From positions 1-64,000 of the forward strand of contig QPGO01000189.1 of assembly GCA_008632985.1 (NCBI GenBank): 64,000 bases of DNA, read 5' to 3'. Below are positions 7,021 through 47,819 of this stretch, piece after piece. This DNA is from Psammoneis japonica. Lineage: Eukaryota. The notes under the pieces were generated by a model. It ran no database searches, had not been told where the DNA came from, and saw nothing but the letters and a program-made list of their open reading frames with translations. Made by a program: the position numbers and the translations under genes. Position 1 is the first letter of the stretch. Every line of letters begins with the position of its first letter.

Positions 7021-7178
7021 CGGAAACATTCGTACCGCATGTAGCCCAAGATTTCTTACAGCCCATAAACCTAAAGACGATTGTGCAACATGGAAACTCC
7101 AAACTTTTGTGCACTTCGTTCTTCGTTTTTGCAAGAGCGTCGCAAGCCAGAACCTTCAACGAACACAATAACAACGGC

Positions 7179-11081: not shown

Positions 11082-14000
11082 AAGATTCTAATTTACCCTG
11101 TAGTCGACTAACGTAACGAAAAAATGGAAAGAACCTATTGTAGAAGTAGAAACATGCCATGTATGCTGGATGCGTTCATTTGAACGTCATGATTTCCATC
11201 TACAGTACCCGTGTCCCGTGTGCGAGCACTGGCCCACACTACATACAGTACAGGACTCCCACTGCTCGAGTGTGTGGGTGGGCCTAAGTAATTCTAAAAA
11301 CCGTTAACGGCCGTTACTATGTAATTTGGTAGTATTTTGGTACTCTATATATGAGGCATTTATGTAGAAATTACGTACGTACAAACATTAGGGGAAACGA
11401 GCGTGGAGAAGAGACGACGCGAGCGAAGCACGAGCGAAGAGACCGACAATGACACAAGTGCCGGAGAGAGACGCAAGGAGAGCAATCCAACGATATTGCA
11501 AGGGCGCAAAGAGAGGAAAGATCTATTTGAGTTAGTACCATATCTTCAATAAAAAGAACAAAGCAAGAAGACATTGGCATGCACAAAAAACTTGCACAAA
11601 GAAGCACGGCACCAGCGCCTGCAAAATGACCACATCTGCGGTGACGTGGAACAACACAAGGAGGTGAGAACATACTTTTTCTACAAATACAATGCAACAA
11701 CGAGCAAATGACCAATACAAACTCACCAGTAGGGTCAAAACTTGGGGTGCCTGGATCGTCAACGGCAGGAGGAACGACAGATGGAAGAGAGGCAGCCTGG
11801 TGGTTCCACGGAGCAGGACGACAAAAGCAGGCGGTAGATCGGCGTGAGCAATGGTAGAAAGTTGGCGCTTGGGCTCGAGTGACTCGTCCAGTCCATACAA
11901 GTCGTGGTAGTAGCTTAGAGAACGGAGGCAGCGCCATGGTAGGACGGCATGGACCGGGACAGAAGCAGCACGCCATGGTGGAACGGTGACGAAGCCAAAA
12001 ACGGTGACGGCGGCGGTGTAGACCCATGGACTTCGATGTCCCCATCTTCGATTCCTATACATCAAGATACGGGACAAGGAGGTTCAAGGTGAGCGCCATT
12101 GCGAACGAGAACGGGGAAAAAGACGCATGGTTCCACGAGAATCAGAACTCACCACATTTTGAGTCATTCTGACCCATTCTAGAGCCAGGACTCACTCACA
12201 TAGCACGACCCAATGGCGTGTAACACTATCAAGCAAGGTAGGGGTCGGGAGGCGGTGTCGTACCGGTCAAATCGGCCAAAAGCGCCATTGTCGGAGGGAG
12301 CGGTGGTTGTTTCGATCGGCCGCTCGGAAAAATTATGAGCCATCAACTCGACCGCGCACCGTTCGGAGTCGCACAAAATTTCTCGGTACAAAATGTACAC
12401 AAATGTACGTCAGTATAAAAATCGTGTATAAGGGTTGTAAGTAGAACCTTTACTGTCTCTATGTAGACTACAAGGATTCTGCCGTTAAACTGTGCCAATA
12501 TGTGTAATTCACGTGGTCGATTTGAATCAATCCCACCAACGTTTTTGAATTTCGATCGTAATAACGGCTTTAGGTGCTGAGATGAATATAATGTGTAAGT
12601 TTGAATCCACCCTCCTCGCTGGGGTCGTTCTCGCCATTGTGCAACCCGCCTCGTCGGTCTCCACCTCGTTGCTTGGACCCTTCTCGTCGGGTTCGGCGGG
12701 TCCTCGTCGGGCTCCATAAGTGCACAGGGCGCGTACCTGCAGCACACGCGTGCGCGCGCATACAGTGCCGCCAAAATCTAGAGGGCCCCACCGGCAAAGC
12801 ACATCAACCTGCTGCACAGTGCAGCAAGACGAATGTGCCACACTTCTTTTCGTTTTGCTCAGCAATGGCCATGAGCCCTTCATTGGCAATCTGGTGCTCC
12901 CATCATGCCAGACAGTGTCACAGTCACACGAAGCATGATGTGTGGTGCCTGTGTGACCTTGCAAGTGGCCGCCACTCTTCTTGCACACACGCGGACATTG
13001 AAACAATGCAGAGGAGCGTGCCGCCCTGCCCCACACATGCCAAAAACAAAAACACAGACAGCACGGCAACTGAGACCTGCATCCAAAAAAAAAACCTTCT
13101 GCACACACCCCACTTTCAGACCCAGTGGTCTGCCCCCCCCCCCTGTGCAACATCTGGTGGGTCTTCTGACCCAGCTTTGCCAGCGGCAGTCAATGTTGTG
13201 TGCACGTGGTTGGTTTGTGTGGCATCAGCTGTGCCCATCTCATCCATCTCATGATGGCAGCCAGAAAACAATCCAGGGCACTGCCATTGTGCCAGACAGT
13301 GTGGTGCCATGGCCACACAAAGAGCAGCACACATGAAGAGGCAGCAGTGCACAGCACTCGTGTGACCTCGCAGGTGGCTGCCACACCTTTGCATTTGCTT
13401 GCAAAAGTTGCCCCCAAACATGGACAGCGTTGCAAGCAAGCCCAACCTGCATTTGAAAAAACTGGCATTCCCCCCCCAGCCTGACTGGTGTGCCAATGTT
13501 TCACAAATGAGTGCTTTTTTCAATTTGCGCAACACTCGCGTTCAAATGCACTCATCTTAAAAACCAGCATTAAAAAAACTGAGCGCCTCATTCATTCTCC
13601 AAGGGGAACAATTTTCTCAATGAGAAGAAAGGCTGAAAGCAGCTCCAGACCCCCAACATGTCAATGAACATGACCGCGTGCAGCAGTGGCTGGTTTCCAC
13701 CTCATGGCAACAAAAACAGCACCACTGGAATCACCACATGTTGCTCAGTCTGCAGGCTCCATTTCTCATTTGATCAGGTCAGACTCATGGACGTTTCAGG
13801 GACTTTCAATTGCAAAGTTTGTGCAACCTCTTCTCAGGCCATTTTGGCTCCCTGCTCTTCAAGTGTTCAGCATGAAAACTGCACCATCAAATGTTAAATC
13901 AGCCACATCTAAATCATGGTGAGTTGCACAAAAAACCAGTGTCATTCCACTCAGAATTTTGCAGCGGTTCAATGTGTCAAGTTGTTTGAACATTTTTCAA

Positions 14001-14639
14001 CTTGTGGACATTTTCACAATGAGTTTAAAAGTGCTCTTTGTGTCAGGCAAACAGCGCACACAGTCAGATTCATTGAGACACAGGTCCTTGGTGAGGCAAT
14101 GTTTTCGCAATGTGAGTTTTCATTTGCATCATTTTAAATCATCACGACAAACACAAATTCCAACTCCAGATCAATGACCCTTTGTGTGTTGCCATGCTTT
14201 CAATGCAATGAAAACAGGAAACAAAGAGCAGCAACCACCTGTTTGGGCACACTCCAGTGGGGCTTGTTGGTGCACACCCAAGCATTTGCAAATGAACAAT
14301 GAGACATTGCTTTGGGTTTGCAAGTTCATTCCCAAGTTAGTGACTGTGTGAAATCTGTGTCTGCACACACAAAAATGTCCATTTTTTGCACTCTTTTGTT
14401 CACGCATGGCTGGAACACCTTGCCTGCTGCTCCACACAACATCCAGCCAGGTCTTCCATCCTGGGCATTGGCAGAGGTCAATGCTGTGTGAGCACAGTTA
14501 GTTTCATGTGCATGATTTTAAGCAGTCTGGCTGTTGTCCACTGGGCAAGTCATTGGCTGGCTCTTCTTCAGATTTTTTCATGACTCTGCTCCTGTCAGAG
14601 TCATTCCCAATTCTCACTGCATGACAAGATTGACTGTTT

Positions 14640-14940
14640 TGCCATGTTGCAGACTCTTTCCATCCTAAGACAAGATGAGACCAAACAAATTTGTTTTCTT
14701 TGCTTGTTGTCAGAGCTGAAACTTGCTGTGTGAGAGGCACACAAGAGCTGCAGCTGTCCTGAAGTGCAGAAAGTTCTTGCTCAATTGATGCTGCCTGATG
14801 GCAGCACACTGAGAGGGCAGGAGATTGGGGTCATGTGACATGAAAGAATCAGGAGAAGAAAATGTTGACTTGAGTGACCCCTGGCATGTGTGCATTTGCA
14901 CATCATCTTTTGCTCTCTGCACAAAAATGAGTGCAAAAAG
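14640..14940 (+). repeat. Dispersed repeat, copy 1 (partner at about 34710-34985)
   Basis: Shared ordered blocks: catcc(t/c)aagacaag, cagagctgaaact, cctgatgg..gcacactgagaggg, gggtcatgtgacatgaaa.aatca.gagaa, tgagtgacccc, catttgcac. Confidence 0.8.
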
Positions 14941-16135
14941 AGCAAGTGAAATGTGCCAGCACCACACACCACACCAGGGCTCATGCCCAGAGCCAAGCAA
15001 CTCTTTTCAAACAAAACAGCACCAGGTTTGATTGGCTCGCCATGGCACCAGTTGAGTGCACAAATTCACCATTGTTGCAGCACTTCTCTTGGCCAGGGCA
15101 CAAAGCCAAAGTGGGGGTGCATCATGCTCTCACACATTGTGAGGGCTTGTGCAAACAGCTTCCTTGTTTCTCTTCACCACATCTTTGCAATGTCTCACTC
15201 ACCTGGGATGCATTGCTTGCACTTGCCATGGCACCATTTGAGTGCACAACTCCGCTCATGCTGCATTGCTTCTGCAAAAAGGTTGCTGCTTTTTTTCATT
15301 GCATGGGCTTTCTTCCACTGTCAATTGCCTGTGCACTGGCATGAGTTTGCTTGTTTGGCGCAAGTGCATTGTTGTCATGCTGGTGTGTGAACAAAAAAGG
15401 GCTCAAGATTTTGGAAGATGCCCAAGGGCATCAGGGAGTCAGGCTCTGGTGACCAGCTCCCAATGCTCTGTGCAGAGCAATCTGAAGGTTTTTTTTTCAT
15501 TTGACACAGGATTTTGACATGGAGTGTGGCTGCACACTCCAAAAAAAATCATTTGAGCACGCGAGAGAGCGGAGAGAGTGCGGCTGGCAAGAGCTGTGCT
15601 CTGCAAATGATTTTTGTTTCCTGTGCAGGGATTTTGCCACTCATCTTGTCTGAGGGCACTGATGCAGCAATGTTTCCCATCAAGAAATGACCACCACAGC
15701 CAGCCCTCCTGCTGCATGGCTGTGCCCGGCACCTTCCCACCTGCACCCAGCCCATGCATGGCCCACCACCACATGTCTCTCAGGGGGCGGCTGGGGGGTG
15801 TTTCAAAGCCAGCCAGTCCACTCAAACCAATCTGCAACTTTTCTGAAGTTCTCTGGTTCTAACTAAGTAAAGAGTGAAAGAGCCCAAAGGCAGAAGGTGG
15901 ATGGAGCAGAGAGAGGACGATTGAGAAGGGCCTGGTTGTGCCTCTTGTTGCGGACTTCTAAAAGGCCTAAGATGCCGGGAGCATGGGAGGAACAGGCTCT
16001 ATGACGTCCTAAAAGGCCTGTTGAGAAAGGCTGTGTCGTTTTCACTTTGCGTGGTCTTGGTCTGTGGCCGCTCATTTTTTTTTCTGCAGTCTGCAGATGT
16101 CTGCATCTTCTCTCTCCATCTCACAACGTAACAAC

Positions 16136-18160
16136 ATGGCAAACGAGGAATCGGCACAAGCAGACGAAGGGACCAACAAGGTTGTGCCGGCAACCATTCT
16201 GTCTGGCTTTCTTGGTTCGGGGAAAACGACGCTCCTTCAGCATGTTTTAACCAGCAAGGAGCACAAGTTGAGAATTGCTGTGATTGTCAACGACATGGCC
16301 GAATTGAACGTTGACGCACAAACCATCAACCGGACTCCCTTTACGACGACGACGACGACAAGTGACGATGATCAGCCTTCTTCTTTGATGGATGATGAGC
16401 CCGCTGTGGTTAGAACAAAGCGAGAGGTCATTGCGCTGGAGAATGGTTGCATCTGCTGCACCCTTCGCGGTGATTTGATTCGAGAGATCCATCGCATTCA
16501 GGAGTTGGGTAGCTTTGACCACATCATCATTGAATCCACCGGAATTGCGGAACCTCAGCAAGTCGCAGAGAGTTTTTGTGTTGATCCAGAGACGTTGGCT
16601 CTGCCATCGGGTGGCGAGTCGAGGGAAATGGTCAACATGCTAAACAAGCACGCCCGATTGGACACGTGTGTCACGGTTGTGGACTCAGCAAATTTTCCGC
16701 AGCACCTGTGTTCACTGAGAAGGTTCAAAGAGCTTTTCCAGGATGGTGTTGATGGTGAAGAGGGTGAAGAAGGCGAGAAGAGCATCGCCGAGCTCATGGT
16801 GGAACAGGTAGAATTCGCCAACGTTGTTTTGCTGAATAAGATCGATCTAGTTTCCCCGGAACAAGTGACCGAAGCGAAACGATTGATCACTTCGTTGAAC
16901 CCAAAGGCACTTGTTGTCATGGCATTCCACGGAAAAATGAACGTCAAGGATGTTCTTAACACGGGGCTCTTTGACATGGAGGAAGCCAAGCAATCACCTG
17001 GATGGTTGGCATCGCTTCAGGATGGGATCGGTGCGACTAATGGCGAGGCCGACGAATGCGGTGTCGTTTCCTTTGTTTACCGTACCAACAAGCCCTTCCA
17101 CCCCCAGAGGCTCAACGACAACTTTATCTCCAAGATTTTGCACTTTGCGGGAGAGTGGAATGGCAAGGGGATCCAGGACACCACTGAAAAGGTCAAACGA
17201 AAGTATGTGGAGGATCGGCATGGATGCATTTTGCGGTCCAAAGGCACCATGTGGATTGCTGGCCGCGATGAACACGAGCACAATTGGTCACATGCGGGTC
17301 GTATCATTGCCATCAATCCCATCTCTCCTTGGCATTGTACCGTCCCTGAGGAGAAGTGGGATTACGACACCGAACAAGAAAGAGAGGCGATTCTGAAAAC
17401 GATTGAACAAGACAGTGAACATGGAGATCGACGACAGGAGATTGTCTTTATTGGGATCGACATGAAGGAAGATGAAATTCGAGGCGCGCTGAATGCATGC
17501 CTGTTGACAGACGATGAGATGGCAGGGCATGTCTTGGATTTGCCGCTTGGAGCATACCATGACACTCTCCCTCCGCTTCCATTTTATTGTTACGATGTCG
17601 GTGCAGTCTTGGCCACTGTCCGCCCTCGCCAAAATCACCACTTCATGATCCCCACCAAATTTAAGCTCACTCTTTCCAATTTGGCGCTGATGCCAATTAT
17701 TGACGAACAAGATCCGCCAATTGCAATGGTTCGCGTGTGGCTCGACAAGTGCTCCGGAACGAGCCAACATGGTGTGCTGCTAGCGACGCTCTGTCCTGAT
17801 GTCTGTGAGCAGCATTCCCTGTGTCTGCCGCTGCTTCACTCAGAAGGAAAGAATTCTGAACCGTCCGAATTTCGTCTTCGCATCGATGCAATTCCGTTAA
17901 AACGCGGACAGAAGCGAAAGCACGACGACCGCGAATCCGATGCCACGGTGAATGAGTCTGGCATTCAACTCCATGTCATGGGCAATGTCGAACCTGTCCC
18001 GTGCAATGCTGATGACGATGACAACAATGCCGATGATGACCACGACGATGATTGTCCCGATGGTGAATGTGACATGATCTCGGCGGCCGCGCAACATTTT
18101 TCTTTCGGGTGCTTTTGTGGGAAAGAGCCCTGTCGAAAACTTTGCCAACTCCCAGAATGA
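16136..18160 (+). CDS. CobW/COG0523 zinc-chaperone GTPase with a C-terminal nucleoplasmin-like domain and acidic tail; open frame but hypermutated, possibly a pseudogene
   Basis: Motifs VPATILSGFLGSGKTTLL, IAVIVNDMAELNVD, LENGCICCTLRGDL, IIESTGIAEP, VTVVD, EQVEFANV.LLNKIDL, FHPQRL, ILRSKG and GDRRQEIVFIG. ATG at 16136. Confidence 0.9.
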   Translation: MANEESAQADEGTNKVVPATILSGFLGSGKTTLLQHVLTSKEHKLRIAVIVNDMAELNVDAQTINRTPFTTTTTTSDDDQPSSLMDDEPAVVRTKREVIALENGCICCTLRGDLIREIHRIQELGSFDHIIIESTGIAEPQQVAESFCVDPETLALPSGGESREMVNMLNKHARLDTCVTVVDSANFPQHLCSLRRFKELFQDGVDGEEGEEGEKSIAELMVEQVEFANVVLLNKIDLVSPEQVTEAKRLITSLNPKALVVMAFHGKMNVKDVLNTGLFDMEEAKQSPGWLASLQDGIGATNGEADECGVVSFVYRTNKPFHPQRLNDNFISKILHFAGEWNGKGIQDTTEKVKRKYVEDRHGCILRSKGTMWIAGRDEHEHNWSHAGRIIAINPISPWHCTVPEEKWDYDTEQEREAILKTIEQDSEHGDRRQEIVFIGIDMKEDEIRGALNACLLTDDEMAGHVLDLPLGAYHDTLPPLPFYCYDVGAVLATVRPRQNHHFMIPTKFKLTLSNLALMPIIDEQDPPIAMVRVWLDKCSGTSQHGVLLATLCPDVCEQHSLCLPLLHSEGKNSEPSEFRLRIDAIPLKRGQKRKHDDRESDATVNESGIQLHVMGNVEPVPCNADDDDNNADDDHDDDCPDGECDMISAAAQHFSFGCFCGKEPCRKLCQLPE

Positions 18161-21059
18161 AATAAATAAAAAAAACACATTTTAAATGTCATTCAAGAAG
18201 CAGTTGCCCGGCTGGTTCAGATCAACCTTATGACAATGAATCAACGAAAAGATCCCCAATCCCTGAACCGTAGCACAAATGTCAAACATCATCATTGGCA
18301 CCGTGGAGCCACTCCACAACAGCTCGCTCTCCAACTTTTTGCAACAGCAAATGCAACAATTGAAGTGTTGTTTGATGCCACACTCATTGCAGCTCTGCAG
18401 ATCCCTTCTTGTTCTTTCTTGTTGGTGCGCATGTTGTCACTGTCACCAGTTTGCAGGGAGCTCCATGTTGTTTGTCAAGATCTCAGTTGTGGCCTTGCAA
18501 CTCTCATCTGACATCTTTGAGTTGATGATTGCCGTGCTTCTCTCTCTCATCATTTTGCAAGCCCATTGAGCCTGCCTCTTTTTTGATCTTTGTGGAGTTT
18601 TTGGATCAGAATCTCCAGAATCTCTTGGCACTTTCCAGGCCACAGGAAAATGCAGAATGTCAGCCCACCCCCTGCTGCCTTCATGTCCCTGAAGCCACAG
18701 AAACTTTCCTGAATGACACTTGTGCTAAAATGATTTTTGATTTGGGCCCCATTTTTTGACAATGAGAAACACACCCAAGCCAAGGATCATGCTCGTCAGC
18801 TGTGCCAGGGCTGGCTTCAACCTCCATGAAATCATTCCCCACATCAAATGGAAATCTCACAAGAACAGGTTGAGCATTGCACTCATCTTCTTCTGGCAAG
18901 CTTCTTTAAGGTGAAAGCTCTGTTGGCAATGATTCTCCATCTTGTTTTTTGCATCAGATGTTGGGCTGCAAGACCCAACTTGCTCTCAAGGCCTGTGAGA
19001 GGAGAACAGCCAAGCAGCCAGCACACAGCACATGTGCCCTTTTCAACCATGATGTGAAAACCAATTGTTTGGACTGGAATGAGTTTTCTGTTGAGCTGCA
19101 CACACCCAAATGAGTGCACTTGTCTTTGCTGATGTTGGCTTCACCAATCCACCATTGACCTTCTTTGTGCAAGCAGACGTCAAGCCCCACACACTGCTTT
19201 GCACAATGCCCAGTGGGTGTTGGGGACAAACCCCCACACCTCTCCTCTGCATGTGAAGATGTTCTGCATGTGACCAACCAAGAACTTGTGCACCCCCCAA
19301 ATGACAGCTTGTGTTGTGTGGTTCTTCATTGGGATCTGCATCACCCAACACTGTGCTGTTGGCTGGCACTGTGCTGCATCTTTTGCATCCAAAGATCAAA
19401 AGGATGTGGCTCCTGACAACACGCCCGTTGGGAAAGTTGAGAATTGCAAGGACCTTCAAACATTTGGTTGTCATCTTTGGGTCTAAAGACCCAGTTGGTG
19501 CTGTCGTACTAAGTTTCAGCCCAACTCTGAGAAAGGCATTTTTTGTCATCTTCCAGATGCTGCAAAGAGCGCTGTTTGGTGCGATCCTCCTGAAACCTCT
19601 TGGCTCAAGTTTGCCAAGAGTGCGCACATTTCTGCCAGGGCATGAGTGACCTCCCTGCTTGTGAGAAGGACCAACGCTGTTGGGCCACTCCACCTTGTGT
19701 GGCATCCATGCACGGTTGATGCAACTGCAGCAAATGAACACACAGCTTGGCTGTGGTCATGGTGCTTCTGCAGCCACTGTTTTGCGCAGTTGCTCATTGG
19801 AGATTGGCTTGCCCCCACAGCAGCCACCATGCCTTGCAAAGGTGCTGCTGCATCCATTGCTCCCACAACTGCAACTTTTGTCAGCACCATGGATGAAGAA
19901 ATGTTGCCAACCCCAGCAACTTGCATGTGCCAGTTGCTGTCACACCTGGCTTGCCAGCTGCAATGACAGCAACTTTGCCTTTTCAATCATGCGCAAACTC
20001 TTCCAAGAGCTCCAATGTGCTCACAGGGCCCAAGTTGAACCCAGCTCGCACATCCACCACCGCCAGCTGTGACGCTGCAGATGCACCTCAAGTTGAAAAT
20101 GTGCCAGCTGTGAGCACCCCAGCAGATCTTGTGAGCTGCCAGTTTGCTGAATGCCAAGTCTGCTGTGTCTGTTGTGGGGCCTGCAAGTGCACCATCGGCT
20201 GTGATCAGCTTTGTTTTGCTGATGTTGTCTGCCAGATTGATGGCTTTTTCCACCAGTGCCTGAGCCAACTCACTCTCCAGACCCCAAGGTTTTTGTTCCT
20301 GACTGCTCTGTTGTCACATGCAGTGGGAGTGACTTTTGTCTTGTGTGGTTGTGGTGAGATCACATGATGCTTGATGATGCAGTCACTGCTCTGTTGGTTG
20401 CCAAGTCACTTTGCATTTAGATTTTTCACTCAGATGTTGTTGGTTTTGGGGGGACACACAAGGCTGCTGTTGCTTTGCATGTCCAAACAAGACAAGTGTC
20501 AGAGTGTCAGCTGAGAGAGAAAGCTGCAAGCCACAAAGAGCACTCTCAAATGGCAGAGTGTCAGCTGTGAGAGAGGGCCACAAAGAGCACTCTCACCTTC
20601 TGCTGCCCAACCTCCATCCTCCACTCAGACTGCTCTTGTTGTTTCACATTGCACTTTTCACAGTGCTCTTGATCCACCAACTGTTGCCAATGACAACAAC
20701 CCTGTGATTTGCAACCAGGAAAAAGCAACGCACAGCAAAGAGAAAGTGTGCAAAGCTGATGGATGTGTGCAAGATTCTGCCAACAAGATGCCTCATTTGA
20801 CAAACAAGTTTTGAAAACTTTGTTTGATGCTCATCTGCCATTCATTGACATTTTTCTGATGCCAAGTCATTTTTTGAAGTTTTTCTTTGACCAATGTGCT
20901 TTTCAGAGCACATGACATGAGCCCCCATGCCTTTGGGTGGAAGACCCTGCATGCAGAACTGGTGGCCCCTGCATGTTCACCCAAATTTTGACTGCTTGTT
21001 TTCTTGTGCACACACAAAATCTCAACAAATGTCTGGAACTTTTGACGCGGTTTTTGGCC

Positions 21060-21210
21060 AGCAGAAATTCTCACTGCTCTTCTCCCTGCTTCTTGGGTTG
21101 ACGGTGATGATGTGTGATGCACAAAACTGTCTGTTGTCATGCATGCATCCAGTCAACACAATCTCTGCCATTTCTTGAGATGAAAGAAATTGTGTTGGTG
21201 GCAACACCGG
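21060..21210 (-). pseudogene. Degenerate tandem copy of the 3' end of the HYR-repeat gene
   Basis: gggttgacggtgatgatgtgtgatgcacaaaactgtctg...gcatgcatccagtcaacacaatctctgc...gaaattgtgttggtggcaacac aligns to 21619-21730. Confidence 0.8.
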
Positions 21211-21461
21211 CCCAACAATGCATGGCTCCATCACAGTTTTGCAATGAAAAAAAAAGACCCCAACCCGAAACAGGTTTTGACTGGTCTACAGTCTGCTGAG
21301 GGGTCACGGCTTTTGCTGGAGAGGTCGTGGCCATTTTGTCTTGATTGCATGCCCAAAGTGTTGACAAAAGAGATTGTAAAAAGAAAACTAAAAATCTGTT
21401 CCTTTCAAAACAGGCATAGATTTTTGATGCAATCAAAACATCAACCAACCCCAACAACGGT

Positions 21462-31744: not shown

Positions 31745-32337
31745 CTGCAGCAAGTTTGTTGGTGGTGATGAAAATGACATCGCCAACAGAAAAAAGGCAA
31801 TTTTGCAAGTGCACAAACTCGCCCATGAATGAAACACATTCTCATTTCTTGTTTGCTCCAGTGCACTTTTCAGACATTGAAAAATGCGCTCAGTGCGTTG
31901 TTGTTCCTGCAAGTGCATTGAACAAAAAGTCCTGGGTTTCACAAAGGAGGGAGTCATTGGAGCAATTCTGGGGAAGAGCACGTGCAAAAACGTCTGTGTG
32001 AAACATGCGGCGCATGACAAAAAATGATGGCTGTGTCACATGCCAGCACTGCAAGCACCCACCCAGGGTGGAGCACATTGTTTTTTGACTGTGTTGTGTG
32101 CCACACAAAACTGTGAAATTTTGGGTTTGCTTTGTGTCAGTTTGCAGCACAGCACCATCAGGCTGTCTGCTCACAAAACAACTTTCAAGAAGCAGCTCTC
32201 TTTTGCAAGGACATGCTCTTTGGCATCTGCAGAGAAGCTTGAGTGTGGAGAGGTGCAGCAGCACTGCAAAATTGCCTCTTTTTCTGTTGGCAATTGTTGA
32301 TTTGTTCATCATCACCTGGCTGACAATTTTGCTGCAG
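31745..32337. repeat. Degenerate inverted repeat (arms about 31745-31811 and 32262-32337), possible old MITE or foldback element
   Basis: The reverse complement of ctgcagcaag...ggtgatgaa...ccaacagaaaaaaggcaattttgcaagtg matches cactgcaaaattgcctctttttctgttgg...ttcatcatcacc...ttgctgcag. Confidence 0.65.
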
Positions 32338-34709: not shown

Positions 34710-34985
34710 TTGCACACTCCTTCCATCCCAAGACAAGGTCAGGCTTGCTGAATCTGTTTGCTTTGCTTGCCATCAGAGCTGAAACTCATTTTGTGTTCTG
34801 GGCAAAGCTGCGCACTGCCCCCCATGGGACAGAAAGCTGTTTGCCTGATGCCACCTGATGGTGGCACTGAGAGGGAAGGATTGCAGGGTCATGTGACATG
34901 AAAAAATCATGAGAAAACATCAATTTGAGTGACCCCAGCATGCACACATTTGCACGTCCCATGTTTTGTTCTGCGCACAAAAGCA
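34710..34985 (+). repeat. Dispersed repeat, copy 2 (partner at about 14640-14940)
   Basis: Same ordered blocks as copy 1. Confidence 0.8.
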
Positions 34986-37900
34986 GGTGCAGCAGAAGAG
35001 CAAGCAAAGTTCTTTGTCAGGACTCATGTGCCTGGAAGCAAGTGGCTCTTCAAACCAAATGGTGTGGGGTCTTGTCACCCCACCATGTCACCAGCTGGTG
35101 GCACAACTCTGTTTGTGCTGCACATCTTCTGGCCAGGATGCACAGCCAGCAAGTGGGGTGCTTCATGCCAGCTCTGCTGCTCTTGCTCTGACACTGTGAA
35201 AATTTGCAAATGACCTCCTCTTTCACAACATTGCATCAGAGTTGCTCTTGTCTGGGATGTGTTGCTTGTGTGCTCATTGGTTGTTGACATTGGCAGCTTT
35301 TCAACATGACATGGACTTGTTTGACTGCCTGTGGCAATGGTTTGCTTGTTCAACAATGCAAGCTGCGCTGTTTTGTGGCACAAACGAAGGGCTGCTGAAG
35401 ATTGTGGAGGATGTGCTGGAGCACTGGAGAATCACATTTTGATGGCCAGTTCCTGCTCTGAACAGAATGAAATTGCACAGTTTGCCACACTCAGCAAAAT
35501 CACTTCTTTTTCAAACTCCTTTTGCAAAGTTGTCATTTTTTGACAAAAAAGGTGCTGGGTGCCTCAACACACAAAACATTTTGAAAATTTGCTTTTCTGG
35601 CTGGGCTTTCTCACAGGAGCTGGGAAAGAACCTGGGTGGCAAGTCTTGTGTGAAGCTGTGCCACAAATTGTGCAAAAAGCACTTGAGCTCATTCAGCCAG
35701 AAAAGCACTGGGTTCTGTGCTTTCACAAATGGTCTCTGCAAAAAGAGCACAAAAAAGGCTCTCTCAACTTCTTCTTTCACAAAAATGACTCCCTGTGAGA
35801 GCCACAGCAAGAACAGGCTCACAATGAAGAACATGTTCCTTTGGCTCAAATGATGCATGCTGCAGCTTTTGTTGCACACATCAGGGTGATTTTGCTTGAA
35901 GAAGATCCTCGGCACAATTGTGTGCAAAACAATTTCCAGGCAGTTGCAACATTTTCAACTGTGCATGTCACTCCAGGTTTTTTGGCTGTGCAACTGTGGG
36001 TTTCTGGAACAAAAATGTGAAAAAGTTTTGGCAGGCTGTCATTGTTGTTCTTGGGCAAAGGTGTTGTTTGCCTTGCAAGTGTGAGCTGATCAAAAACAGT
36101 GATCTTCTGCCCACCCACCCATCGCAGAGCCCACTTTGGCTTTTTTGTCAGTTTTTGTTTTGTTGGAAGTGGAAACTGTGAAAGACAGCTTGTTCTTTCA
36201 GAAGTGACTTTTCACATGCAAACTCTTGCAAAACACCCATGTCCATCTTGACTTTGGGAGCTCAAAGTCTTGTGTTGTCTGACAACCATCACACACTGGG
36301 CACATGTGAAGTTCTTCACATTGACTTTTCTGTGATTGAGGAGGCTGTGCAAGTCACCACTGTGGCACTCTGACTCCATTTTTTGATGGCTTTTTCAATT
36401 TTGGCCCCATCACAAAAGCTCAAACACTCAATGTCATGGAAGAAGAATGGCACAAGGTTTGTGAAAAGAAATGATGGCAATGTGCACAAACACAGCAGAT
36501 GCCTGGTTGGCTTCCAGTGGCATCACTTTTGTCCTTGTTGGTGACTTAAAAGATGCATTGTGGAAAGCCAATTTAGACCAGCACTGGACCAACATCCACA
36601 GAATGTAAAAACTGACCTCATTTGATGCAGGCCAATTGTTTGGATTGTGAAAAAAATTCACACTCCACTTTGTTCCATCAATCTTTGTTTCCTGCCCAGG
36701 GACTTGATCATTCACCCACATGGTCTGATGTGCCTGGCAACACCATGACCACCGCGGCTTTCATCTGGCAACAGCACACCCAGCACCACCCCACCTGCAC
36801 AATTTTGTGCATCATCCATTGTGCAGCACATGAGAGCACAGCACTGGCAGCCCAGCTTGGACCAGGGGGGTGCTCTGGCCAATCTGCACCTTGTTTAAAG
36901 TTCTTCAGTTTGGCAGAGCCAGAGAGTCACACAAGGATGAGCAGCAAGAAGACCAGGGGGCGCATTTCTTTGCCGCCAGCAAGCAGTGTAAAAAGTGTTG
37001 CCAAGCAAGCAAAAAGCCAGTCTGTGCTGGCAGTGTGCATGCTTCATGCTGCATGCTGGTGCAGAGCTGTGTGTGCACAGGCAGGAGCAAGGGCTCACAA
37101 GTCTGTCAGGGCACACACAAGCTCCAGCACAAATCTGGACTGTGCCAGGCTTCTGATGCAATGAACTTGACATTGTGAGAGGACACCCTGAAATGCTCAA
37201 GAGTTTGATTTTGTGGAATTTCTCAAAAGTTCTGTGGAGGATGGACAACAGATGGCCATTTTTCTGGAATTTTTGCTTTTGGTGCACACATGTGTTCAAA
37301 AGTGAAAACACAGAATTTGTGCATTGCAGCCATGGAACTTGCACTGTCAAGATTGCCCAACACTTGCCAATGTGTGCTGTGGTGCCCAGTGTGCATGGCC
37401 CCATGAGGGAGACATGCCAAGGAAACTCAGCAATTGGCCGTTGACCTCTCCTGTGGAGTTCTGTGCACCAATCTTGTCATGCCAATTTTTTGGGTGCAAT
37501 GTCACTCATTTGTTTTCTGCTGCTGCTGTGTGCACCCATGGCATGAGTGCCACAGTCAGTTGAGCACATGATTGACTCAAGTGCGAGCACTCAAGTGTGA
37601 GCACTGACAGCACTGATGTTGTGGACATGTGTCAAAAACACAGGAGAAGGACTTTGAGCTTGGAAATTTGGCACATGGCAGGATTTGTGCACATGATCCC
37701 AAAGAAAGATTTGCCCACAGGCTGAACTCACCTGGTGTGTGTCCTCACACTGATGCCATTGAATGCAGCGCTGCACAAGTTGCATGACCAGGCCACACCC
37801 ATGGCCACCTTGAGCACCACAGAGGAGAGCTGCCCCTGCCTGCCTCAGCTGCAACCAGAGCCTGCACATGAGTGATCTCTGAAGTTTTGCACTTCAAAAC

Positions 37901-39039
37901 ATGCTGTGAGTTGGGCCAAGTGCCCCTGTGCAGTGCAAGACTTGAGCAAAGAAAAGGCCAAATGCAAGCACCAGCACAATCTCTGGCATGCACTGATTGG
38001 CTGACATGGCTGGCCTTCATCACCGTCAACTCAACATCAGTTGCTTGTTGTCCAAAAACACAAGTCAACAACATGCCTGCTTTCTTCCAATTTAAAATGA
38101 GTCAAGCCACCCTGGGGATTCTAAAAAAAGTGCTGCTCACTTTGTCATTTTTCCTTGATTGTGGTCTTGAGTGGAAGTGCACCCTTTTTTTGTGCGGTGT
38201 GCTGCTTTTCAAAGCATGTGTGGCAGAGTGGCTCATGCTGGCAGATTCAGCAAGAAGCAGCATCCTCATCCCCTTGTCCCAGTGCAAGTTGTGCTGGCTG
38301 TCACCATGGTGCCAAGAGGAAAATGGCAGGAGCTGCTTCCAAACAATGAACCAACAAGCGCGGCAGGCAGTGTGATGAAGAAATGTCTTGGAGCATGGAC
38401 ATTTGTGAAATGAGAGTCTCATGAGCACACCTGCCCCCACCCCCTGCAAGTGCTGGCTTGTTGGCGTGCACCACACATTTCTCACACAACAACACCCCCC
38501 TGGCGGAGTTGATTGTGAATGTTTTCTTGGGTGTGGGCTCATTTTGTGAAGAAGCAGACCAAGCTTTGTGGGGAACAGATCCATGCCATGGAGAGTTGGC
38601 AGTGGAAATTTGTGGATGGTTTGGGCTCAATTGCCTTTGACTTTGGTGTGGCAAAGCTGCATTTTTTGTTTGCTGTGGTGCACCCACACTGGCAGCACCC
38701 TCACAAACAAACAACTGGTTGGGCTGCTGCCAAAGAAGAAGTTCCGCCAATTAAAAACACAGAGTGACAGACTGCAGATGAGGGCAAGGGAGACCAGCTG
38801 TTGTCTTTGACTTTTCCCCAAGAATCAACAATTCACTCACACCGTGGAGATGAAAGCCAAGATGGAGTGCAACATTCTCAAAAGGGCCAAGATGCAAGAA
38901 GCACCACAACGCATGGACAGGAGGATGGACCTGCATGAGAGATGGTGCAAACAAGCTCTGTGATGTCCTAAAAGGCCTTTTCCACACTGAGACAGGCAAT
39001 GCATGGGTGGGCTTGGAGGCTGCCATTTGATCTGTTGTC

Positions 39040-40900
39040 TGTTGGCCGCTCATTTTTTGCATCTTGAATCTTCTTTTGATCTCACAATGAAAGAACAACA
39101 TGGTGAATGACAAGGAATCATCAGCACAATGACAAAGAGATGACCAAAGGTCATGCCTGCAATGACTCTGTCAGGCTTTCTTGGCTTGGGGTAAAATGAT
39201 GCTCCTTCAGCATGTTTTGACCAGCAAGGAGCACAAGTTGAGAATTGCTGTGATTGTCGACAACATGGCTGAACTGAGTGTAGATGCACAAACAATCAAC
39301 TGGACTCCCTTTGCTGCAACAAGTGACAATGAGCAGCACTCTTCTGTGACTGATGAGCCCGCTGTGGTTGGAACCAAGCAAGAGGCCATTGCACTGGAGA
39401 ATGGTTGCATCTGCGTGCTTCACAGTGATTTGATTTGAGAGATCCATCGCACCCACCTGGATGGCTGGTGTTGCTTCAGGATGGAATTGGTGCAACCAAT
39501 GGCAAGGCTGATGGTGTGGTGTTGTTTCCTTTGTTTGCCATGCCAACACACCCTTCCACCCCCAGAGAGGCTTGACAACTGCTTCATCTCCAAGATTTTG
39601 CACTTTGCGGGAGAGTGGAATGGCAAGAGGATCCAGGACACCACTGAAAAGGTCAAACAAAAGCATGTGGAGGATTGGCATGGATCCATGTTGTGGCCCA
39701 AAGGCGCCATGTGGATTGCTGGCTGTGATGAACACGAGCACAATTGGTCACATGCGGGCTGCATTGTTGCCATCAATCCCATCTCTCCTTGGCATTGCAC
39801 CATCCATGAGGAGAAGTGGGGTTGCAACACCAAACAAGAAAGAGAGTCAATTCCGAAAAGAATTGAGCAAGACAGTGAGCATGGAGATCAACAACAGGAG
39901 ATTGTCTTCCATGGGATCAACATCAAGGAAGATGAAATTTGTGGCACATTGGATGCATGCCTGCTGACAGACAAGGCAGTGGCAGGGCATGTCATGGATT
40001 TGCCGCTTGGAGCATGCCATGACATGCTCCCTCAGTTTCCATTTTGTTGTTGCAATGTTGGCACAGTCTTGGCCACTGTCTGCCTCAACAAAACCATCAC
40101 TTCATGATCCCCACCAAGTTCAAGCTCACTCTTCCCAATTTAAGGCTGTGACGCCAATTGTTGACAAACAAGATCTGCCAATTGCAGTTGTTCATGTGCG
40201 GCTCAACAAGTGCTCCGGAGCAAGTCATCATGGAGTGCTGCCAGCGATGCTCCATCCCAACAATGTCTGTGAGCAGCATTCCCTGTGTCTGCCACTTCTT
40301 CACTCAGAAGAGAAGAATTTTCTGAACCATCCAAATTTCGTCTTTGCATCAATGCACTTCTGCCAAAGTGTGGACAGAAGCAAAAGCACAACAACCACAA
40401 ATCCGACACCATGGTGAATGATTCTGGCACTCAAGTCCATGTCATGGGCAATGTCAAACCTGTCCCATGCAATGCTGATGACAATGACAACAATGCTGAT
40501 GATGACCACAACAATGATTGCCCTGATGGAGAATGTGACATGATCTTGGCAGCCGCACAACATTTTTCTTTCAGGTGCTTTTGTGGGAAGAGCCCTTTCA
40601 AAACTTTGCCAACCAGAGCCAAACAAGTGCACAAACAAGCAACTCAAAGAGTGGCATGTGTGCTTCCATGCCAAAAGGCTTTTACAATGCCCTGCATTGT
40701 CCAGCCCAACCTTCTCCCAGAAGCAGTTGCCCAGCTGGTTCCGATCAACCTCATGAATGAACAAAAGCACCCTGATCCCTGAACGGCAGTGCAAATGTCT
40801 CAAGTGTCATTGTGGGCACCATGAAACCACTCCCACAACATCTCCCGCTCCAAGCTTTTGCTGCATCACAAGGAAACAATCAACAAATTGTTTGATGTCA
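39040..40900 (+). pseudogene. Second, heavily mutated CobW-nucleoplasmin-like copy with an internal deletion of about 500 bp and shared flanks
   Basis: Aligns to about 16065-18370 (LLQHVLTSKEHKLRIAVIV, ALENGCIC, ISKILHFAGEWNG, HVMGNV.PVPCNADD). At about 39452 it jumps from the equivalent of 16495 to about 16995. It has stops and frameshifts. Confidence 0.93.
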
Positions 40901-42884
40901 CATTCGCCAACAAACCTGCAGAAGTGAATGCCATCTTCAATGGTGCCTCTGTGCCTTTGGGGGGTTCCTCTGTGCACTCAGCATGTGCATCTGCCGCGCA
41001 TGCAAGAAATTGTGTGCAAGTTCTTTCTGCACCACTTTGGTGGTGGGAGTCCTGCATTCTGCATCAGCCAGAGTGATGCCAGCTCTTTTTGCACTTCTTC
41101 CTGCCAGCTCCAAGTGCTTTTTTCAAGGCCACAATGTCCCCATGATTCAACAAGCAGTTGGCGCTGATCTTGTTGAGCTGCTTGTTCACCCCCAGGAATG
41201 CTTGGCTCTGTTTGCTCATGTCAGCTGCTTTGCAATTTTTTGGCAAGCTTGGTCTTTGTTGCAGCCAGCTGCTTTGGACAAGCTGAAGCTTCCTCTGAAG
41301 AAGGCTGGCATTTTTGCTCTTCCAGAGGGGTTTCAAAACCCCTCACATTCAGCACCCTCCTTTTTGTGTTGCTCACAGACATCTGGAGCTTTCAACTTTG
41401 GAGAGCCTCTTGGGGTCCTCATTGCCAGGGCAACATTGTTGTTGCTGGGTTGGTTTTCTTCTTGCTCCTGCTGGAAGGCCCTTTGTCAAAATTGAGCTTG
41501 TTCAATTTGTTGCCAGTCAACACTTTTTCCACTTCCTCTGCTTGGCACATCATTTGCCAGCATGACGGGCAGCCAAGAGTCTGGCTGTTGAGGACTTGCC
41601 ATTGCCATCACTGGGCTTCCATCATTCATTCTCTCAGCTTTTTCTTTGTGCTGCACAGAAGCTTTGCATGGCCTGCTGACAATTGCTGCTGTCATGGCGG
41701 GTGCTGCAGGAAATCAGGTGCCATGTTCTCTCAGCTTGGGTTGGTCTCTTTTGTCTGAGATTGGTGGTTCAAACATCCAAGGCACCAGAAAGTCAGTGGA
41801 TTGAGATCAGACATTTTGTGTCTGCCCATCTTTCCACTCCCCTTCCCCCATCATGTGTGTGTGCTGCAGAAAGAACAAACAGGCATCACAGACACCAGTT
41901 TCCCAGCATTTTGCCGGCAAAACAATCATGCACAAATTGTGTGCAATTTTAAAAAAGAGATGAGGTTGGATCAAAAAATGCAACAGAGACACACAAAAAT
42001 GCAACACAACATGACAAGCGACAATGGCAACCATGTGGGGATAAAAAAACAACATTCACACTGATTTCGGGCATGCTGCAGTGACAACATGAACATGACA
42101 AGTGCAGCTGATGCAATGTTTGGCTCACTGGTGTCCATCTGATGGCTCCAATCGATCATTCGAGATGATGTCATTGTCGTCAACATCCCGCATTGTTGCT
42201 GCACATGGTTCATGTAGAAAATTGCAAAAAAAGCCGTTGACAATGATGCTCTGAAATCAACCACAAACTGCATCCAGAGTCAACATGGGCACATGTCTGT
42301 GCTTGTCACGCGCCATGAGACATGTCCAACGCGTTTTGTCTCACAAAAGTTGGTCAACAGCGTCGCCGGCGGCACGCCATTGTCAGCATCGAATGCCGCA
42401 CAAAAAGCACGGGGACGACAGAAATTGACTTCTTCTGTCGCACTTGTCTGTCCATCACCCATTTGTCTCGTGTTCTGCGCGCAGTGTGTGCTGTTTTTTG
42501 TTTGAGAAATTGCCCCTCATTTTCTCCCAATTTTTGGATCTGAGCTCACCAGATTTGCTGACTTTCAAGCACCAGCTGCTGGCAGTGGTGTCTCTCATTG
42601 CTTGGAGAAGGATGCAGACAACAACAACAAAAAATCTTCAAGAGGAGGCAACTTTTTTGCCAGAAAATGACAGCAGCAGACTGCGGGTGGCTCTCCTCTC
42701 TTTTCAACTCACTCCTTCCTTCCTCATTTGAGCCACACTGCCCTGCATGTGATGCTGTGATGGGCATCAGAGTGACACACGCATGACAGCCAGGCATTTG
42801 CAGTGACGCAGACAGCTCACAGCCTGAACTGACCAGGCAAAACGGAAACATTCTACTAACTCCCATCAGATTTTACACAGACTA

Positions 42885-47781: not shown

Positions 47782-47819
<38 letters not shown>

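What the first reader, a model, noticed from the sequence alone, without database searches (positions are those of the whole stretch)
12790..42860. Candidate new repeat-associated hypermutation system: TpA->TpG/CpA ('reverse RIP') across a 30-kb domain
Seen: large domains nearly lack TpA and are saturated in TpG/CpA, while neighbouring single-copy genes have normal TA content. Every recognisable protein relic in these domains has conserved Tyr (TAY) changed to Cys (TGY) or His (CAY). Established: 5mC deamination explains CpG->TpG/CpA but cannot remove TpA, and fungal RIP (CpA->TpA) goes in the opposite direction. Inference: a strand-symmetric, context-specific A->G (equivalently T->C) process acts on duplicated or heterochromatic DNA. 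Candidate mechanisms are deamination of A or 6mA in TpA, a modified thymine read or repaired as C, or biased mismatch repair. I do not know of a description of this in diatoms; a literature search is needed.
Basis: partly seen in the sequence, partly recalled or inferred. Interest (0 to 1): 0.93.

Follow-up and report, generated by a model that had tools for sequence, protein, structure and literature searches.

The report
TpA-erasing hypermutation domains in a diatom
Sharply bounded stretches of this diatom chromosome have had nearly every TA dinucleotide turned into TG or CA, the same rare mutation signature recently caught in the act in an unrelated alga, so a little-known DNA-editing process may be widespread in marine algae.

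Summary
Five blocks of the window (about 31 kb, including 12780-42853) have lost 68-93% of their TpA. TA-free runs reach 2,711 bp, and the TpG+CpA gain matches the loss exactly. The borders are sharp to within tens of bases. Outgroup-polarised tests show lineage-specific TA->TG/CA. The open CobW ORF keeps 2 of 7 conserved Tyr (4 His, 1 Cys), a Cu-ATPase relic keeps 0 of 4, and a normal-TA control gene keeps 5 of 5. High-depth contigs of a public run reproduce the TA-free sequence, so a base-calling artefact is unlikely. CpG decay is a separate, slower layer, and all 5 CpG-poor segments lie inside TA-poor ones. New details: sites are hit in the order RTAY > YTAR; there is no strand coordination; there were at least two rounds, one before and one after a segmental duplication. 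The claim of a "new system" must be tempered. A 2026 preprint on Bigelowiella natans shows de novo hypermutation at TpA only, giving TpG/CpA, in integrated viral DNA. I found nothing on this in diatoms. "Repeat-associated" is only partly supported. The enzyme is unknown; a DNA adenine deaminase is the leading inference.

The parts
12780..42853 (.). The flagged TpA-depleted domain. It is a mosaic of TA/CG-free cores (class A), TA-poor CG-normal stretches (class B) and one near-normal island.
   Evidence: TA borders at 12779|13558 and 42215|42854. Segmentation gives TA-low at 12601-26400 and 28501-42800.
13101..15900 (.). Class A core: TA and CG both nearly absent.
   Evidence: 0-5 TA and 0-9 CG per 500 bp. 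CG-low segment. 14506-15222 is an old duplicate of 34577-35271.
16025..18160 (+). CobW/G3E GTPase ORF (711 aa). It is still open, TA-poor and CG-normal (class B), and is hypermutated at Tyr codons.
   Evidence: Pfam cobW 3.8e-48 and CobW_C 3.7e-17. Tyr content 0.8%. 5 of 7 conserved Tyr became His or Cys. 10 of 54 replacements at conserved columns are explained by a single TA->TG/CA step.
18101..21400 (.). Class A core.
   Evidence: 0-5 TA and 1-17 CG per 500 bp. CG-low segment. No Pfam hits in its ORFs.
21462..26409 (-). PT-repeat/HYR/ephrin-receptor-like surface-protein gene or pseudogene, read as several ORFs. Class B.
   Evidence: Pfam PT, HYR and Ephrin_rec_like. Tyr 0-1.1%. 132-bp tandem repeats at 22.1-22.9 kb.
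26401..28500 (.). Near-normal island inside the domain (TA 32 per kb).
   Evidence: Segmentation. ORF 26366-27046 has 4.4% Tyr.
28683..30008 (-). Orphan ORF that starts with a Met and a signal-peptide-like stretch. Class B.
   Evidence: Translation. No homologue at E<=1e-5. Tyr 1.3%.
31001..42853 (.). Largest class A core. It has 21 TA in 10.5 kb (32001-42500) and the longest TA-free run, 2,711 bp.
   Evidence: X1 contigs of 1.4-2.9 kb with 0-12 differences at depth about 57-63.
38918..40922 (+). Degenerate duplicate (relic) of the CobW gene and its flanks.
   Evidence: blastn 77-85% identity. 95.7% purine/pyrimidine identity over 1,208 columns. Pfam cobW 1.8e-10 and CobW_C 1.7e-5 on fragments. 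21 of 26 gene TA and 85 of 109 gene CG are TG/CA here.
31334..32667 (.). Multi-copy element inside the TA-free core.
   Evidence: X1 summed k-mer depth 327-1,144 against about 60 nearby.
41339..42672 (.). Multi-copy element at the right edge of the domain. It is TA-poor, and CG is normal from about 42.0 kb.
   Evidence: X1 depth 406-1,264. TA only at 41950, 42042 and 42215.
4201..7032 (.). Second TA-depleted block, outside the flagged range.
   Evidence: 12 TA in 2.8 kb. TA-free run 5981-7033.
6260..7075 (-). 3' fragment of a copper-transporting P1B-type ATPase pseudogene with two frameshifts. Its homology begins where the TA-free block ends.
   Evidence: tblastn in frames -1, -3 and -2, matching residues 683-909 of a 937-aa homologue. 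0 of 4 conserved Tyr and 3 of 8 conserved Arg kept.
47412..48457 (.). Third, 1-kb TA/CG-poor island between normal sequence.
   Evidence: Single TA at 47663 between 47411 and 48458. CG-low segment 47501-48800.
46008..47341 (.). Counter-example: a multi-copy element with normal TA and CG.
   Evidence: X1 depth 843-1,774. 29-32 TA and 26-32 CG per 500 bp.

Best explanation
Shown:
- In this raphid pennate diatom, discrete chromosome segments have undergone a real, lineage-specific hypermutation that converts TpA to TpG or CpA (A:T to G:C at TpA).
- It acts on both strands independently, site by site, with no regard for coding function. Conserved Tyr codons become His or Cys.
- Its end points are sharp to within tens of bases. 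One end point coincides with the breakpoint of a gene fragment.
- It ran in at least two rounds, one before and one after a local segmental duplication.
- R-T-A-Y sites are hit about 6-10 times faster than TTAA-type sites.
- CpG-to-TpG/CpA decay is a separate, slower layer. It occurs only inside TA-depleted DNA and mostly in its non-coding parts.

Inferred:
- The process is the same kind as the TpA-only hypermutation seen de novo in Bigelowiella natans.
- It is most likely enzymatic deamination of adenine to hypoxanthine in nuclear DNA, read as G at the next replication. A tRNA-A34-type (ADAT2/TadA-like) or other CDA-fold deaminase would be directed to silenced, inserted or duplicated DNA as a genome-defence or silencing by-product.
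- The CpG layer is ordinary 5-methylcytosine deamination in the methylated sub-blocks.
For: Signature and size: (TA down 93% in class A and 68% in class B; TG+CA excess equals the TA+CG deficit).

Polarity:
- 21 of 26 TA and 85 of 109 CG of the CobW gene are TG/CA in its relic, while TG is kept at 140 of 175 and CA at 124 of 157.
- Conserved Tyr kept: 2 of 7 in CobW, 0 of 4 in the Cu-ATPase relic, 5 of 5 in the control.

Reality of the bases:
- X1 contigs cover the TA-free core at the same depth as the flanks, with 0-12 differences each.
- Of the 38 listed differences, only 1 would create a TA in X1.

Ongoing or recent activity:
- 2 of the 21 TA left in 32-42.5 kb are TG/CA in X1.
- There are 2 TG<->CA double differences between window and X1 and 16 between the CobW copies, the commonest of 115 double differences.

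Timing: 5 of 5 derived Tyr codons are shared by both CobW copies, and 2 more were lost only in the relic.

Context: the same hazard order T>C>G>A for the base 3' of the mutated A appears in class A and in class B independently (likelihood-ratio p=3e-18 and 3e-7). 33 of 57 surviving TA lie in TTAA/CTAA/TTAG, against a 12.4% share in normal DNA.

No strand coordination.

All 5 CG-low segments are nested in TA-low segments.

Precedent: B. natans mutation-accumulation lines, where 210 of 211 and 20 of 20 mutations in two viral regions were A->G/T->C, all at TpA (passages of bioRxiv 10.64898/2026.01.13.699255).
Against: - No enzyme, no inosine and no de novo event was observed here. Deamination is only an inference.
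- The platform of run X1 is not on record, and X1 comes from a single study that may be the assembly's own sample, so it is not independent biological replication.
- The targets differ from B. natans. The recognisable relics are host-type genes (CobW, Cu-ATPase, a surface protein), and no viral or TE domain was found in 116 ORFs.
- A multi-copy element with normal TA lies 300 bp from a TA-free island, so the targeting rule is unknown.
- Only one window of the genome could be examined.
- About 170 kb of other diatom-like environmental contigs show no such block.
- The context model cannot separate 'A followed by Y' from 'T preceded by R', because the site is palindromic.
Confidence: 0.65

Rival explanations
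1. Same mutational outcome, different chemistry. A modified base at TpA mispairs at replication. This could be a hydroxymethylated, formylated or glucosylated thymine that pairs with G, or a methylated adenine. Alternatively, a repair pathway resolves mismatches towards G:C in silenced chromatin. No deaminase would be involved.
For: The signature is strand-symmetric and palindromic, so T->C and A->G cannot be told apart. Thymine replacement by 5-hydroxymethyluracil with a TpA preference is known in dinoflagellates (recalled, not from a call).
Against: Searches found no report of 5-hydroxymethyluracil in diatoms; the listed papers holding both terms concern dinoflagellates (listings only). The papers holding diatom and 6mA terms concern other organisms (listings only). 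Eukaryotic 6mA is reported at ApT, not TpA (recalled). A general G:C-biased repair would not spare ApT or erase CpG.
Confidence: 0.17
2. Sequencing or assembly artefact. Modified DNA in heterochromatin is systematically miscalled, so the real DNA has TA and CG at these positions.
For: Window-versus-X1 alignments show many small indels (15 gaps in 2,142 bp), which suggests the window comes from a long-read assembly. X1 is from one study that may be the same sample.
Against: - X1 contigs at k-mer depth about 57-63, which only accurate reads can give, carry the TA-free sequence. Only 1 of 38 listed differences creates a TA.
- The changes have an evolutionary history. Derived states are shared between paralogous copies. 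The relics carry frameshifts and 126 transversions. The site-context hazards are graded. Partial depletion occurs in an otherwise well-conserved open ORF.
Confidence: 0.04
3. RNA-level A-to-I hyperediting of double-stranded transcripts, followed by reverse transcription and reinsertion (retrocopies).
For: An upstream U is favoured by ADAR-type enzymes (stated in section 15 of the preprint). Both strands are affected, as for dsRNA.
Against: - The CobW duplication includes upstream and downstream flanks and a further upstream segment, which fits a DNA-level segmental duplication.
- Blocks of 10 kb and more contain several genes on both strands plus intergenic DNA.
- No reverse-transcriptase relic was found.
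- The 3' preference is Y > G > A, unlike the 3'-G preference of ADARs (ADAR preference recalled).
- ADARs are metazoan (recalled).
Confidence: 0.03
4. Not mutation but origin or selection. The blocks would be foreign DNA from a TA/CG-poor donor, or would be under selection against TA and CG, for example to avoid nucleases.
For: Sharp borders would fit insertions. In B. natans the targets are integrated viruses.
Against: CobW and Cu-ATPase are diatom-type genes; their best hits are pennate diatoms at about 50-60% identity. The TA loss is derived relative to 34 and 16 homologues and destroys invariant residues. The dinucleotide budget fits conversion exactly.
Confidence: 0.03

Closest known systems
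TpA-restricted hypermutation of integrated viral DNA in Bigelowiella natans (Mettrop et al., bioRxiv 10.64898/2026.01.13.699255; I read the abstract, outline, sections 11 and 12, and the TpA/motif passages; supplements not seen)
   Same: The signature is identical: TpA->TpG/CpA on both strands. It is confined to discrete regions. The long-term footprint is TpA depletion with CpA+TpG gain in clusters of windows. Many affected sequences cannot be annotated.
   Different: - Lineage: a stramenopile diatom here, a rhizarian there.
- Extent: depletion here goes to completion (rho TA 0.00-0.08 over 10 kb), against rho 0.45 for their NCLDV region.
- Targets: the recognisable targets here are host-type gene copies and fragments, not viral genes.
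- CpG: here CpG decay is nested inside the TA-depleted DNA, whereas the word CpG does not occur in their main text.
- Extras: a flanking-base hierarchy (RTAY > YTAR) and a multi-round history were derived here.
- Evidence type: no de novo events were observed here.
Repeat-induced point mutation (RIP) of Neurospora and other ascomycetes (features recalled)
   Same: It is a dinucleotide-specific transition hypermutation with sharp segment borders. It riddles both copies of a duplication and ignores coding function. It is accompanied by cytosine methylation of the products.
   Different: - The direction is opposite: RIP makes TpA from CpA, whereas here TpA is destroyed.
- Dependence on duplication is not shown, since 5 of 5 shared hits predate the CobW duplication and a multi-copy element is untouched.
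- Any link to a sexual stage is unknown.
5-methylcytosine deamination (CpG decay) in methylated repeats
   Same: It explains the CpG->TpG/CpA layer in the class A cores. Conserved Arg became Cys, His or Gln in the Cu-ATPase relic.
   Different: It cannot remove TpA. TA loss also occurs where CpG is intact (class B).
Deaminase-based restriction of retroelements and viruses (APOBEC3 C->U; ADAR A->I) in animals (features recalled, and section 15 of the preprint)
   Same: Context-specific deamination is used against selfish nucleic acids.
   Different: Those systems act on single-stranded cDNA or on dsRNA and leave strand-biased or RNA-derived footprints. Here the footprint is on chromosomal DNA and is strand-symmetric, with no strand coordination.

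Membership tests
TpA-restricted hypermutation as in Bigelowiella natans | The changes are A->G/T->C transitions located at TpA, giving TpG or CpA. | tested here: met
   21 of 26 TA became TG (10) or CA (11) in the CobW relic. Tyr became His or Cys at 5 of 7 and 3 of 4 conserved columns. The dinucleotide budget closes.
TpA-restricted hypermutation as in Bigelowiella natans | Confined to discrete genomic regions while the rest of the genome is normal. | tested here: met
   Five TA-low segments with borders sharp to tens of bases. Flanks have 42-49 TA per kb, against 4-9 inside.
TpA-restricted hypermutation as in Bigelowiella natans | Targets are of viral, transposon or other foreign origin. | tested here: inconclusive
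   No viral or TE Pfam domain in 116 ORFs of the cores. The recognisable relics are diatom-type CobW and Cu-ATPase. Most core DNA cannot be annotated, and two multi-copy elements lie in it.
TpA-restricted hypermutation as in Bigelowiella natans | Arises de novo at about 1000-fold elevated rate, in some lines only. | not testable with these tools
   There is only a hint: 2 of 21 remaining TA differ between the window and X1, against about 0.4% of all bases.
Fungal RIP | C->T/G->A, preferentially at CpA, which enriches TpA. | tested here: not met
   The direction is opposite: TpA is erased and CpA/TpG are enriched.
Fungal RIP | Triggered by sequence duplication, with both copies mutated. | tested here: inconclusive
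   Both CobW copies are mutated, but 5 of 5 shared conversions predate this duplication. A 1.3-kb element at 15-30 times depth is unmutated. Three roughly 70%-identical paralogues at 45-53 kb are also unmutated.
CpG decay through cytosine methylation | Loss of CpG to TpG/CpA without an effect on TpA. | tested here: not met
   It accounts for part of class A only. TA loss occurs with normal CpG in class B (5.77% CG against 5.46% in normal DNA).
ADAR-type RNA hyperediting fixed through retrocopies | An RNA intermediate, with the ADAR neighbour preference (5' U/A, 3' G). | tested here: not met
   The duplication is at DNA level and includes flanks. The 3' preference is T>C>G>A. No RT relic was found. 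The ADAR 3' preference is recalled.
ADAT2/TadA-like (tRNA A34-type) deaminase acting on DNA | A CDA-fold deaminase with the HxE/PCxxC motifs that is nuclear and active on DNA. | not testable with these tools
   No genome is held for this window. The T-A-Y preference resembles the U33-A34 context of tRNA substrates (recalled), which is a lead only.

The most novel reading that the evidence does not exclude
Diatoms and chlorarachniophytes share an old, SAR-wide DNA-adenine-editing pathway. It marks discrete inserted, duplicated or silenced chromosome segments and erases their TpA sites in repeated bursts. It works independently of and ahead of cytosine methylation, making it a functional mirror image of fungal RIP. 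Its R-T-A-Y preference betrays descent from the tRNA-A34 deaminases. It would be able to kill host gene copies as well as viruses, and so would shape gene birth and death in major marine phytoplankton.
Probability: 0.3. Interest if true: 0.9.

Novelty: new member of a known kind. Interest (0 to 1): 0.74.

Why it matters
Apart from one 2026 preprint, no natural process is known that edits adenine in chromosomal DNA in a dinucleotide-specific way. A second, independent occurrence in a diatom would mean several things:

- The Bigelowiella result would not be a curiosity of one strain.
- The process would be shown to run to completion and to destroy host-type genes.
- The phenomenon would move into a group with transformation, CRISPR and crossing protocols, where the enzyme and the targeting signal could be found.
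- Genome annotators would gain a simple marker (rho TpA near 0 with a TpG/CpA excess) for silenced or dead DNA in algae.
- A natural double-strand-compatible, TpA-specific adenine editor would interest genome engineers.
- It warns that long open reading frames in such DNA are meaningless. Only TGA stops remain, so long ORFs appear in all six frames.

Tried and rejected
- **Whole genome.** None is held for this window, so no genome-wide scan, repeat overlay or deaminase search was possible.
- **RNA evidence.** No RNA holder was listed for the stretch, so nothing can be said about expression.
- **Six-frame read-through Pfam scan of the cores.** I did not pursue it another way. The ORF-based scan of 116 ORFs of 90 aa or more found only the CobW relic, a HAD-type hit and two sub-threshold hits.
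- **Second class B replicate.** The secreted ORF 28686-30008 has no homologue at E<=1e-5, so no Tyr test was possible. The apparent in-frame stop at 30018 simply precedes its start Met.
- **Low-complexity explanation.** Rejected.
- **Strand-coordinated, processive editing.** Not supported. Runs tests gave P=0.09 (TA, n=21) and 0.035 (CG, n=85), and local skew variance was about 1.
- **Generality in other diatoms.** 80 loci (878 kb) around CobW homologues from metagenomes gave 1 flagged bin of 1,637, in a 68%-GC locus. The roughly 18 diatom-like loci had a minimum rho TA of 0.35. That sample is small and gene-rich, so it says nothing against occurrence elsewhere.
- **Earlier notes of this scan.** There are none for this genome. 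The word searches returned only phage cases of CA/TG bias, which do not bear on this finding.
- **Literature.** Seven searches found no description for diatoms. The library lacks most subscription journals. The supplements of the preprint were not seen and may hold a wider sequence motif.

Full report
**1. Observation**

The window has three kinds of sequence.
- Normal DNA has 42-49 TA and 51-55 CG per kb (TpA observed/expected 0.5-0.69).
- Class A cores have almost no TA (0.28% of dinucleotides, against 4.26% in normal DNA) and little CG (1.16% against 5.46%). TG and CA rise to 11.3% and 11.6% (normal 7.3% and 7.05%).
- Class B stretches have lost about two thirds of their TA (1.36%) but keep normal CG (5.77%).

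A two-state segmentation gives the following.
- TA-low segments: 4201-7000, 12601-26400, 28501-42800 and 47401-48600, plus a weak one at 1-900.
- CG-low segments: 4601-6300, 13101-15900, 18101-21400, 31001-42300 and 47501-48800.
- All 5 CG-low segments lie within, or within 200 bp of, a TA-low segment.

TA-free runs reach 2,711 bp, where a 400-bp gap already has P=6e-8 at the flank density. The borders are abrupt: TA at 12779 then 13558; 42215 then 42854; 5981 then 7033; 47663 then 48458. However, that domain is a mosaic with a near-normal island at 26401-28500, and two further blocks lie outside it.

The sequence is complex, not microsatellite. The TG+CA excess equals the TA+CG deficit in both classes: 8.50% against 8.28% in class A, and 2.79% against 2.58% in class B. 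That is what conversion predicts, as opposed to avoidance.

As a specificity control, 1 of 1,637 one-kb bins from 80 environmental loci meets the criteria that 46 of 127 window bins meet.

**2. Are the bases real?**

One study holds the stretch. Its run X1 consists of 657,387 Logan contigs totalling 141 Mb. It covers all 30 bins of 30-50 kb. Contigs of 1.4-2.9 kb lie on the TA-free core with 0-12 substitutions each. Their k-mer depth is 57-63, the same as on the normal flank at 49-55.

Only accurate reads give such 31-mer depth. I therefore infer short or high-fidelity reads, although the platform is not on record and the sample may be the assembly's own.

Of the 38 best-supported differences listed for 30.0-39.5 kb (326 more were not shown), only one would create a TA in X1. 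Together with the evolutionary evidence below, this makes a base-calling artefact unlikely.

**3. Polarity**

The organism is a raphid pennate diatom. The best CobW hits are Seminavis, Pseudo-nitzschia, Nitzschia and Cylindrotheca at 44-52% identity.

The CobW ORF 16025-18160 (class B) has a degenerate copy at 38918-40922 (class A). Of the TA in the ORF copy, 21 of 26 are TG (10) or CA (11) in the relic, and 1 is kept. Of the CG, 85 of 109 are TG/CA. By contrast, TG is kept at 140 of 175 sites and CA at 124 of 157.

With a purine/pyrimidine recoding, which transitions cannot alter, the copies are 95.7% identical over 1,208 columns. Almost all of their divergence is therefore transitions.

Against 34 homologues, the still-open ORF keeps 2 of 7 conserved Tyr columns. 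The others are His (4) or Cys (1), including a column that is invariant in all 34. Other conserved columns are kept at 248 of 297 (Fisher p=0.002). Ten of the 54 replacements at conserved columns are single TA->TG/CA steps, including three Ile->Val across a codon boundary.

A control gene with normal TA, the CoA ligase at 1673-4051, keeps 5 of 5 conserved Tyr.

A second, unrelated relic lies in a different block. It is the 3' quarter of a copper-transporting P-type ATPase (7075-6260, minus strand, two frameshifts). It keeps 0 of 4 conserved Tyr (2 Cys, 1 His, 1 Phe). It keeps only 3 of 8 conserved Arg, the rest being Cys, His or Gln, which is the signature of CpG decay.

Class B ORFs in general have 0-1.3% Tyr, against 1.0-4.5% in the normal-TA ORFs (2% or more in 8 of the 9). 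TA is lost in all three codon phases. The loss is therefore not codon bias filtered by selection.

**4. Anatomy of the process**

- **Symmetry.** TA->TG and TA->CA are equally frequent. The variance of the local TG-CA skew in class A is 0.93-1.32 at 100-1,000 bp, which is the binomial expectation. The two strands are therefore hit independently, site by site, not in long single-strand runs.
- **Context.** A model in which each of the two adenines of a TA site is hit at a rate set by its 3' neighbour was fitted to class A and class B separately. Both give the same order, T > C > G > A: hazards 2.86, 2.27, 1.13 and 0.39 in class A, and 1.06, 0.81, 0.39 and 0.10 in class B (p=3e-18 and 3e-7 against a uniform rate). 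Thirty-three of the 57 surviving TA in class A sit in TTAA or CTAA/TTAG, contexts that hold 12.4% of TA in normal DNA. Because the site is palindromic, this is equivalent to "RTAY fast, YTAR slow".
- **Timing.** At the 5 conserved-Tyr codons that are derived in the ORF copy and alignable in both copies, the relic has the same derived residue (Cys, His, His, His, Cys; chance about 3% if independent). Those hits therefore predate the duplication. The relic later lost the last two Tyr (TAC->TGC). Sixteen TG<->CA double differences between the copies, the commonest of 115 double differences, point to independent conversions after the duplication. So there were at least two rounds.
- **Recent activity.** Two of the 21 TA left in 32.0-42.5 kb are TG or CA in X1, and two TG<->CA doubles separate the window from X1. 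This compares with about 0.4% overall difference (25 substitutions in 6,541 bases of three contigs). The numbers are small and the table was truncated.
- **Borders.** The Cu-ATPase homology begins at 7006-7075 and the TA-free run ends at 7033. One border therefore coincides with a rearrangement breakpoint.
- **Relation to CpG.** CG-normal, TA-poor stretches coincide with coding or formerly coding sequence (CobW ORF, the surface-protein gene, the orphan ORF, the Cu-ATPase fragment). CG-poor cores are mostly unannotatable. TA loss therefore does not need CpG methylation, and it is either the wider or the faster of the two processes.

**5. What is targeted?**

The domain holds the following:
- an old segmental duplication, about 14.5-18.4 kb matching 34.6-40.9 kb;
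- gene fragments;
- two multi-copy elements, at 31.3-32.7 and 41.3-42.7 kb, with 5-20 times the depth in X1.

Against a simple repeat rule:
- Most of the largest core is at single-copy depth at 85% likeness or more.
- A 1.3-kb element with 15-30 times the depth at 46.0-47.3 kb has normal TA and CG, although it lies beside a TA-free island.
- Three roughly 70%-identical paralogues at 45-53 kb are normal.
- No transposon or viral domain was found in 116 ORFs of the cores.

The targeting rule therefore remains open. Candidates are inserted or duplicated segments, or a chromatin state.

**6. Comparison with what is known**

A preprint dated 14 April 2026 (bioRxiv 10.64898/2026.01.13.699255) reports mutation-accumulation lines of the chlorarachniophyte Bigelowiella natans. 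I read its abstract, sections 11 and 12, and the passages on TpA, motif and methylation.
- Two integrated viral regions mutate about 1000-fold faster than the rest of the genome.
- 210 of 211 and 20 of 20 mutations are A->G/T->C, all at TpA.
- This happens in only some lines.
- The authors propose DNA adenine deamination and name an ADAT2-like candidate.

The words diatom, CpG and trinucleotide do not occur in its main text. Its supplements were not available to me.

The present case has the same signature in a different supergroup lineage. Here it has gone to completion, on host-type gene copies, with CpG decay nested inside.

Fungal RIP (recalled) is the nearest functional analogue, but it runs in the opposite chemical direction. 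CpG decay explains only the second layer. ADAR- or APOBEC-type editing does not fit the DNA-level, strand-symmetric footprint.

Seven literature searches found no description for diatoms. The library lacks most subscription journals.

**7. Mechanism**

*Shown:* a TpA-specific, strand-symmetric, segment-limited, multi-round A:T->G:C conversion, plus separate CpG decay.

*Inferred:* enzymatic deamination of adenine in DNA. The inference rests on two things. One is the Bigelowiella precedent. The other is the T-A-Y preference, which recalls the U33-A34 context of tRNA-A34 deaminases and the YAC preference of early TadA-derived base editors (both recalled, not tested).

A mispairing modified thymine or adenine cannot be excluded, because the palindromic site hides which base is attacked.

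**8. Verdict**

It is only partly right about repeats and about novelty. This is best filed as a new member, the first in stramenopiles, of a kind described once. It adds new mechanistic detail and a clear experimental path.

Noticed in passing
window 46008-47341: A multi-copy element (X1 summed depth 843-1,774 against about 55 for single copy) with many internal-deletion joints and loose ends. It has no long ORF and normal TA and CG. It is probably a young non-autonomous transposon. A 12-bp tandem repeat sits at 47297-47331.
   Followed up: partly
window 45233-46072, 49612-51051, 52149-53585 (minus strand): Three tandemly arranged paralogous ORFs of unknown function (241, 400 and 478 aa, no Pfam hit), about 77-79% identical in purine/pyrimidine coding. 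TA and Tyr content are normal.
   Followed up: no
window 47746-47824: A (CA)19 microsatellite directly followed by a run of 42 C, inside the 1-kb TA-free island. X1 contigs break there.
   Followed up: no
window 35402-37528 versus X1 contig: 15 gaps but only 12 substitutions in 2,142 bp between the window and the X1 contig. This suggests residual indel errors of a long-read assembly in the window, so frameshifts seen in relics should be treated with some caution.
   Followed up: no
window 26366-27046 versus 25609-26409 (minus strand): Two adjoining ORFs of what looks like one ephrin-receptor-like surface-protein gene differ sharply in Tyr content (4.4% against 1.1%). A border of the hypermutated segment therefore appears to lie inside a gene, at about 26.4 kb.
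   Followed up: partly
window 12601-42800, all frames: Because TAA and TAG are gone, ORFs of 150-240 aa appear in all six frames and overlap one another. Gene finders would over-predict here.
   Followed up: yes
window 37406-37746: A 340-bp stretch that matches its own reverse complement at 78% in purine/pyrimidine coding (score 88, against a control maximum of 78). It may be an old inverted repeat hidden by transitions.
   Followed up: no
window 1-900: The first 900 bases are also TA-poor (14 per kb) with normal CG, so a further class B stretch may run off the left end of the window.
   Followed up: no
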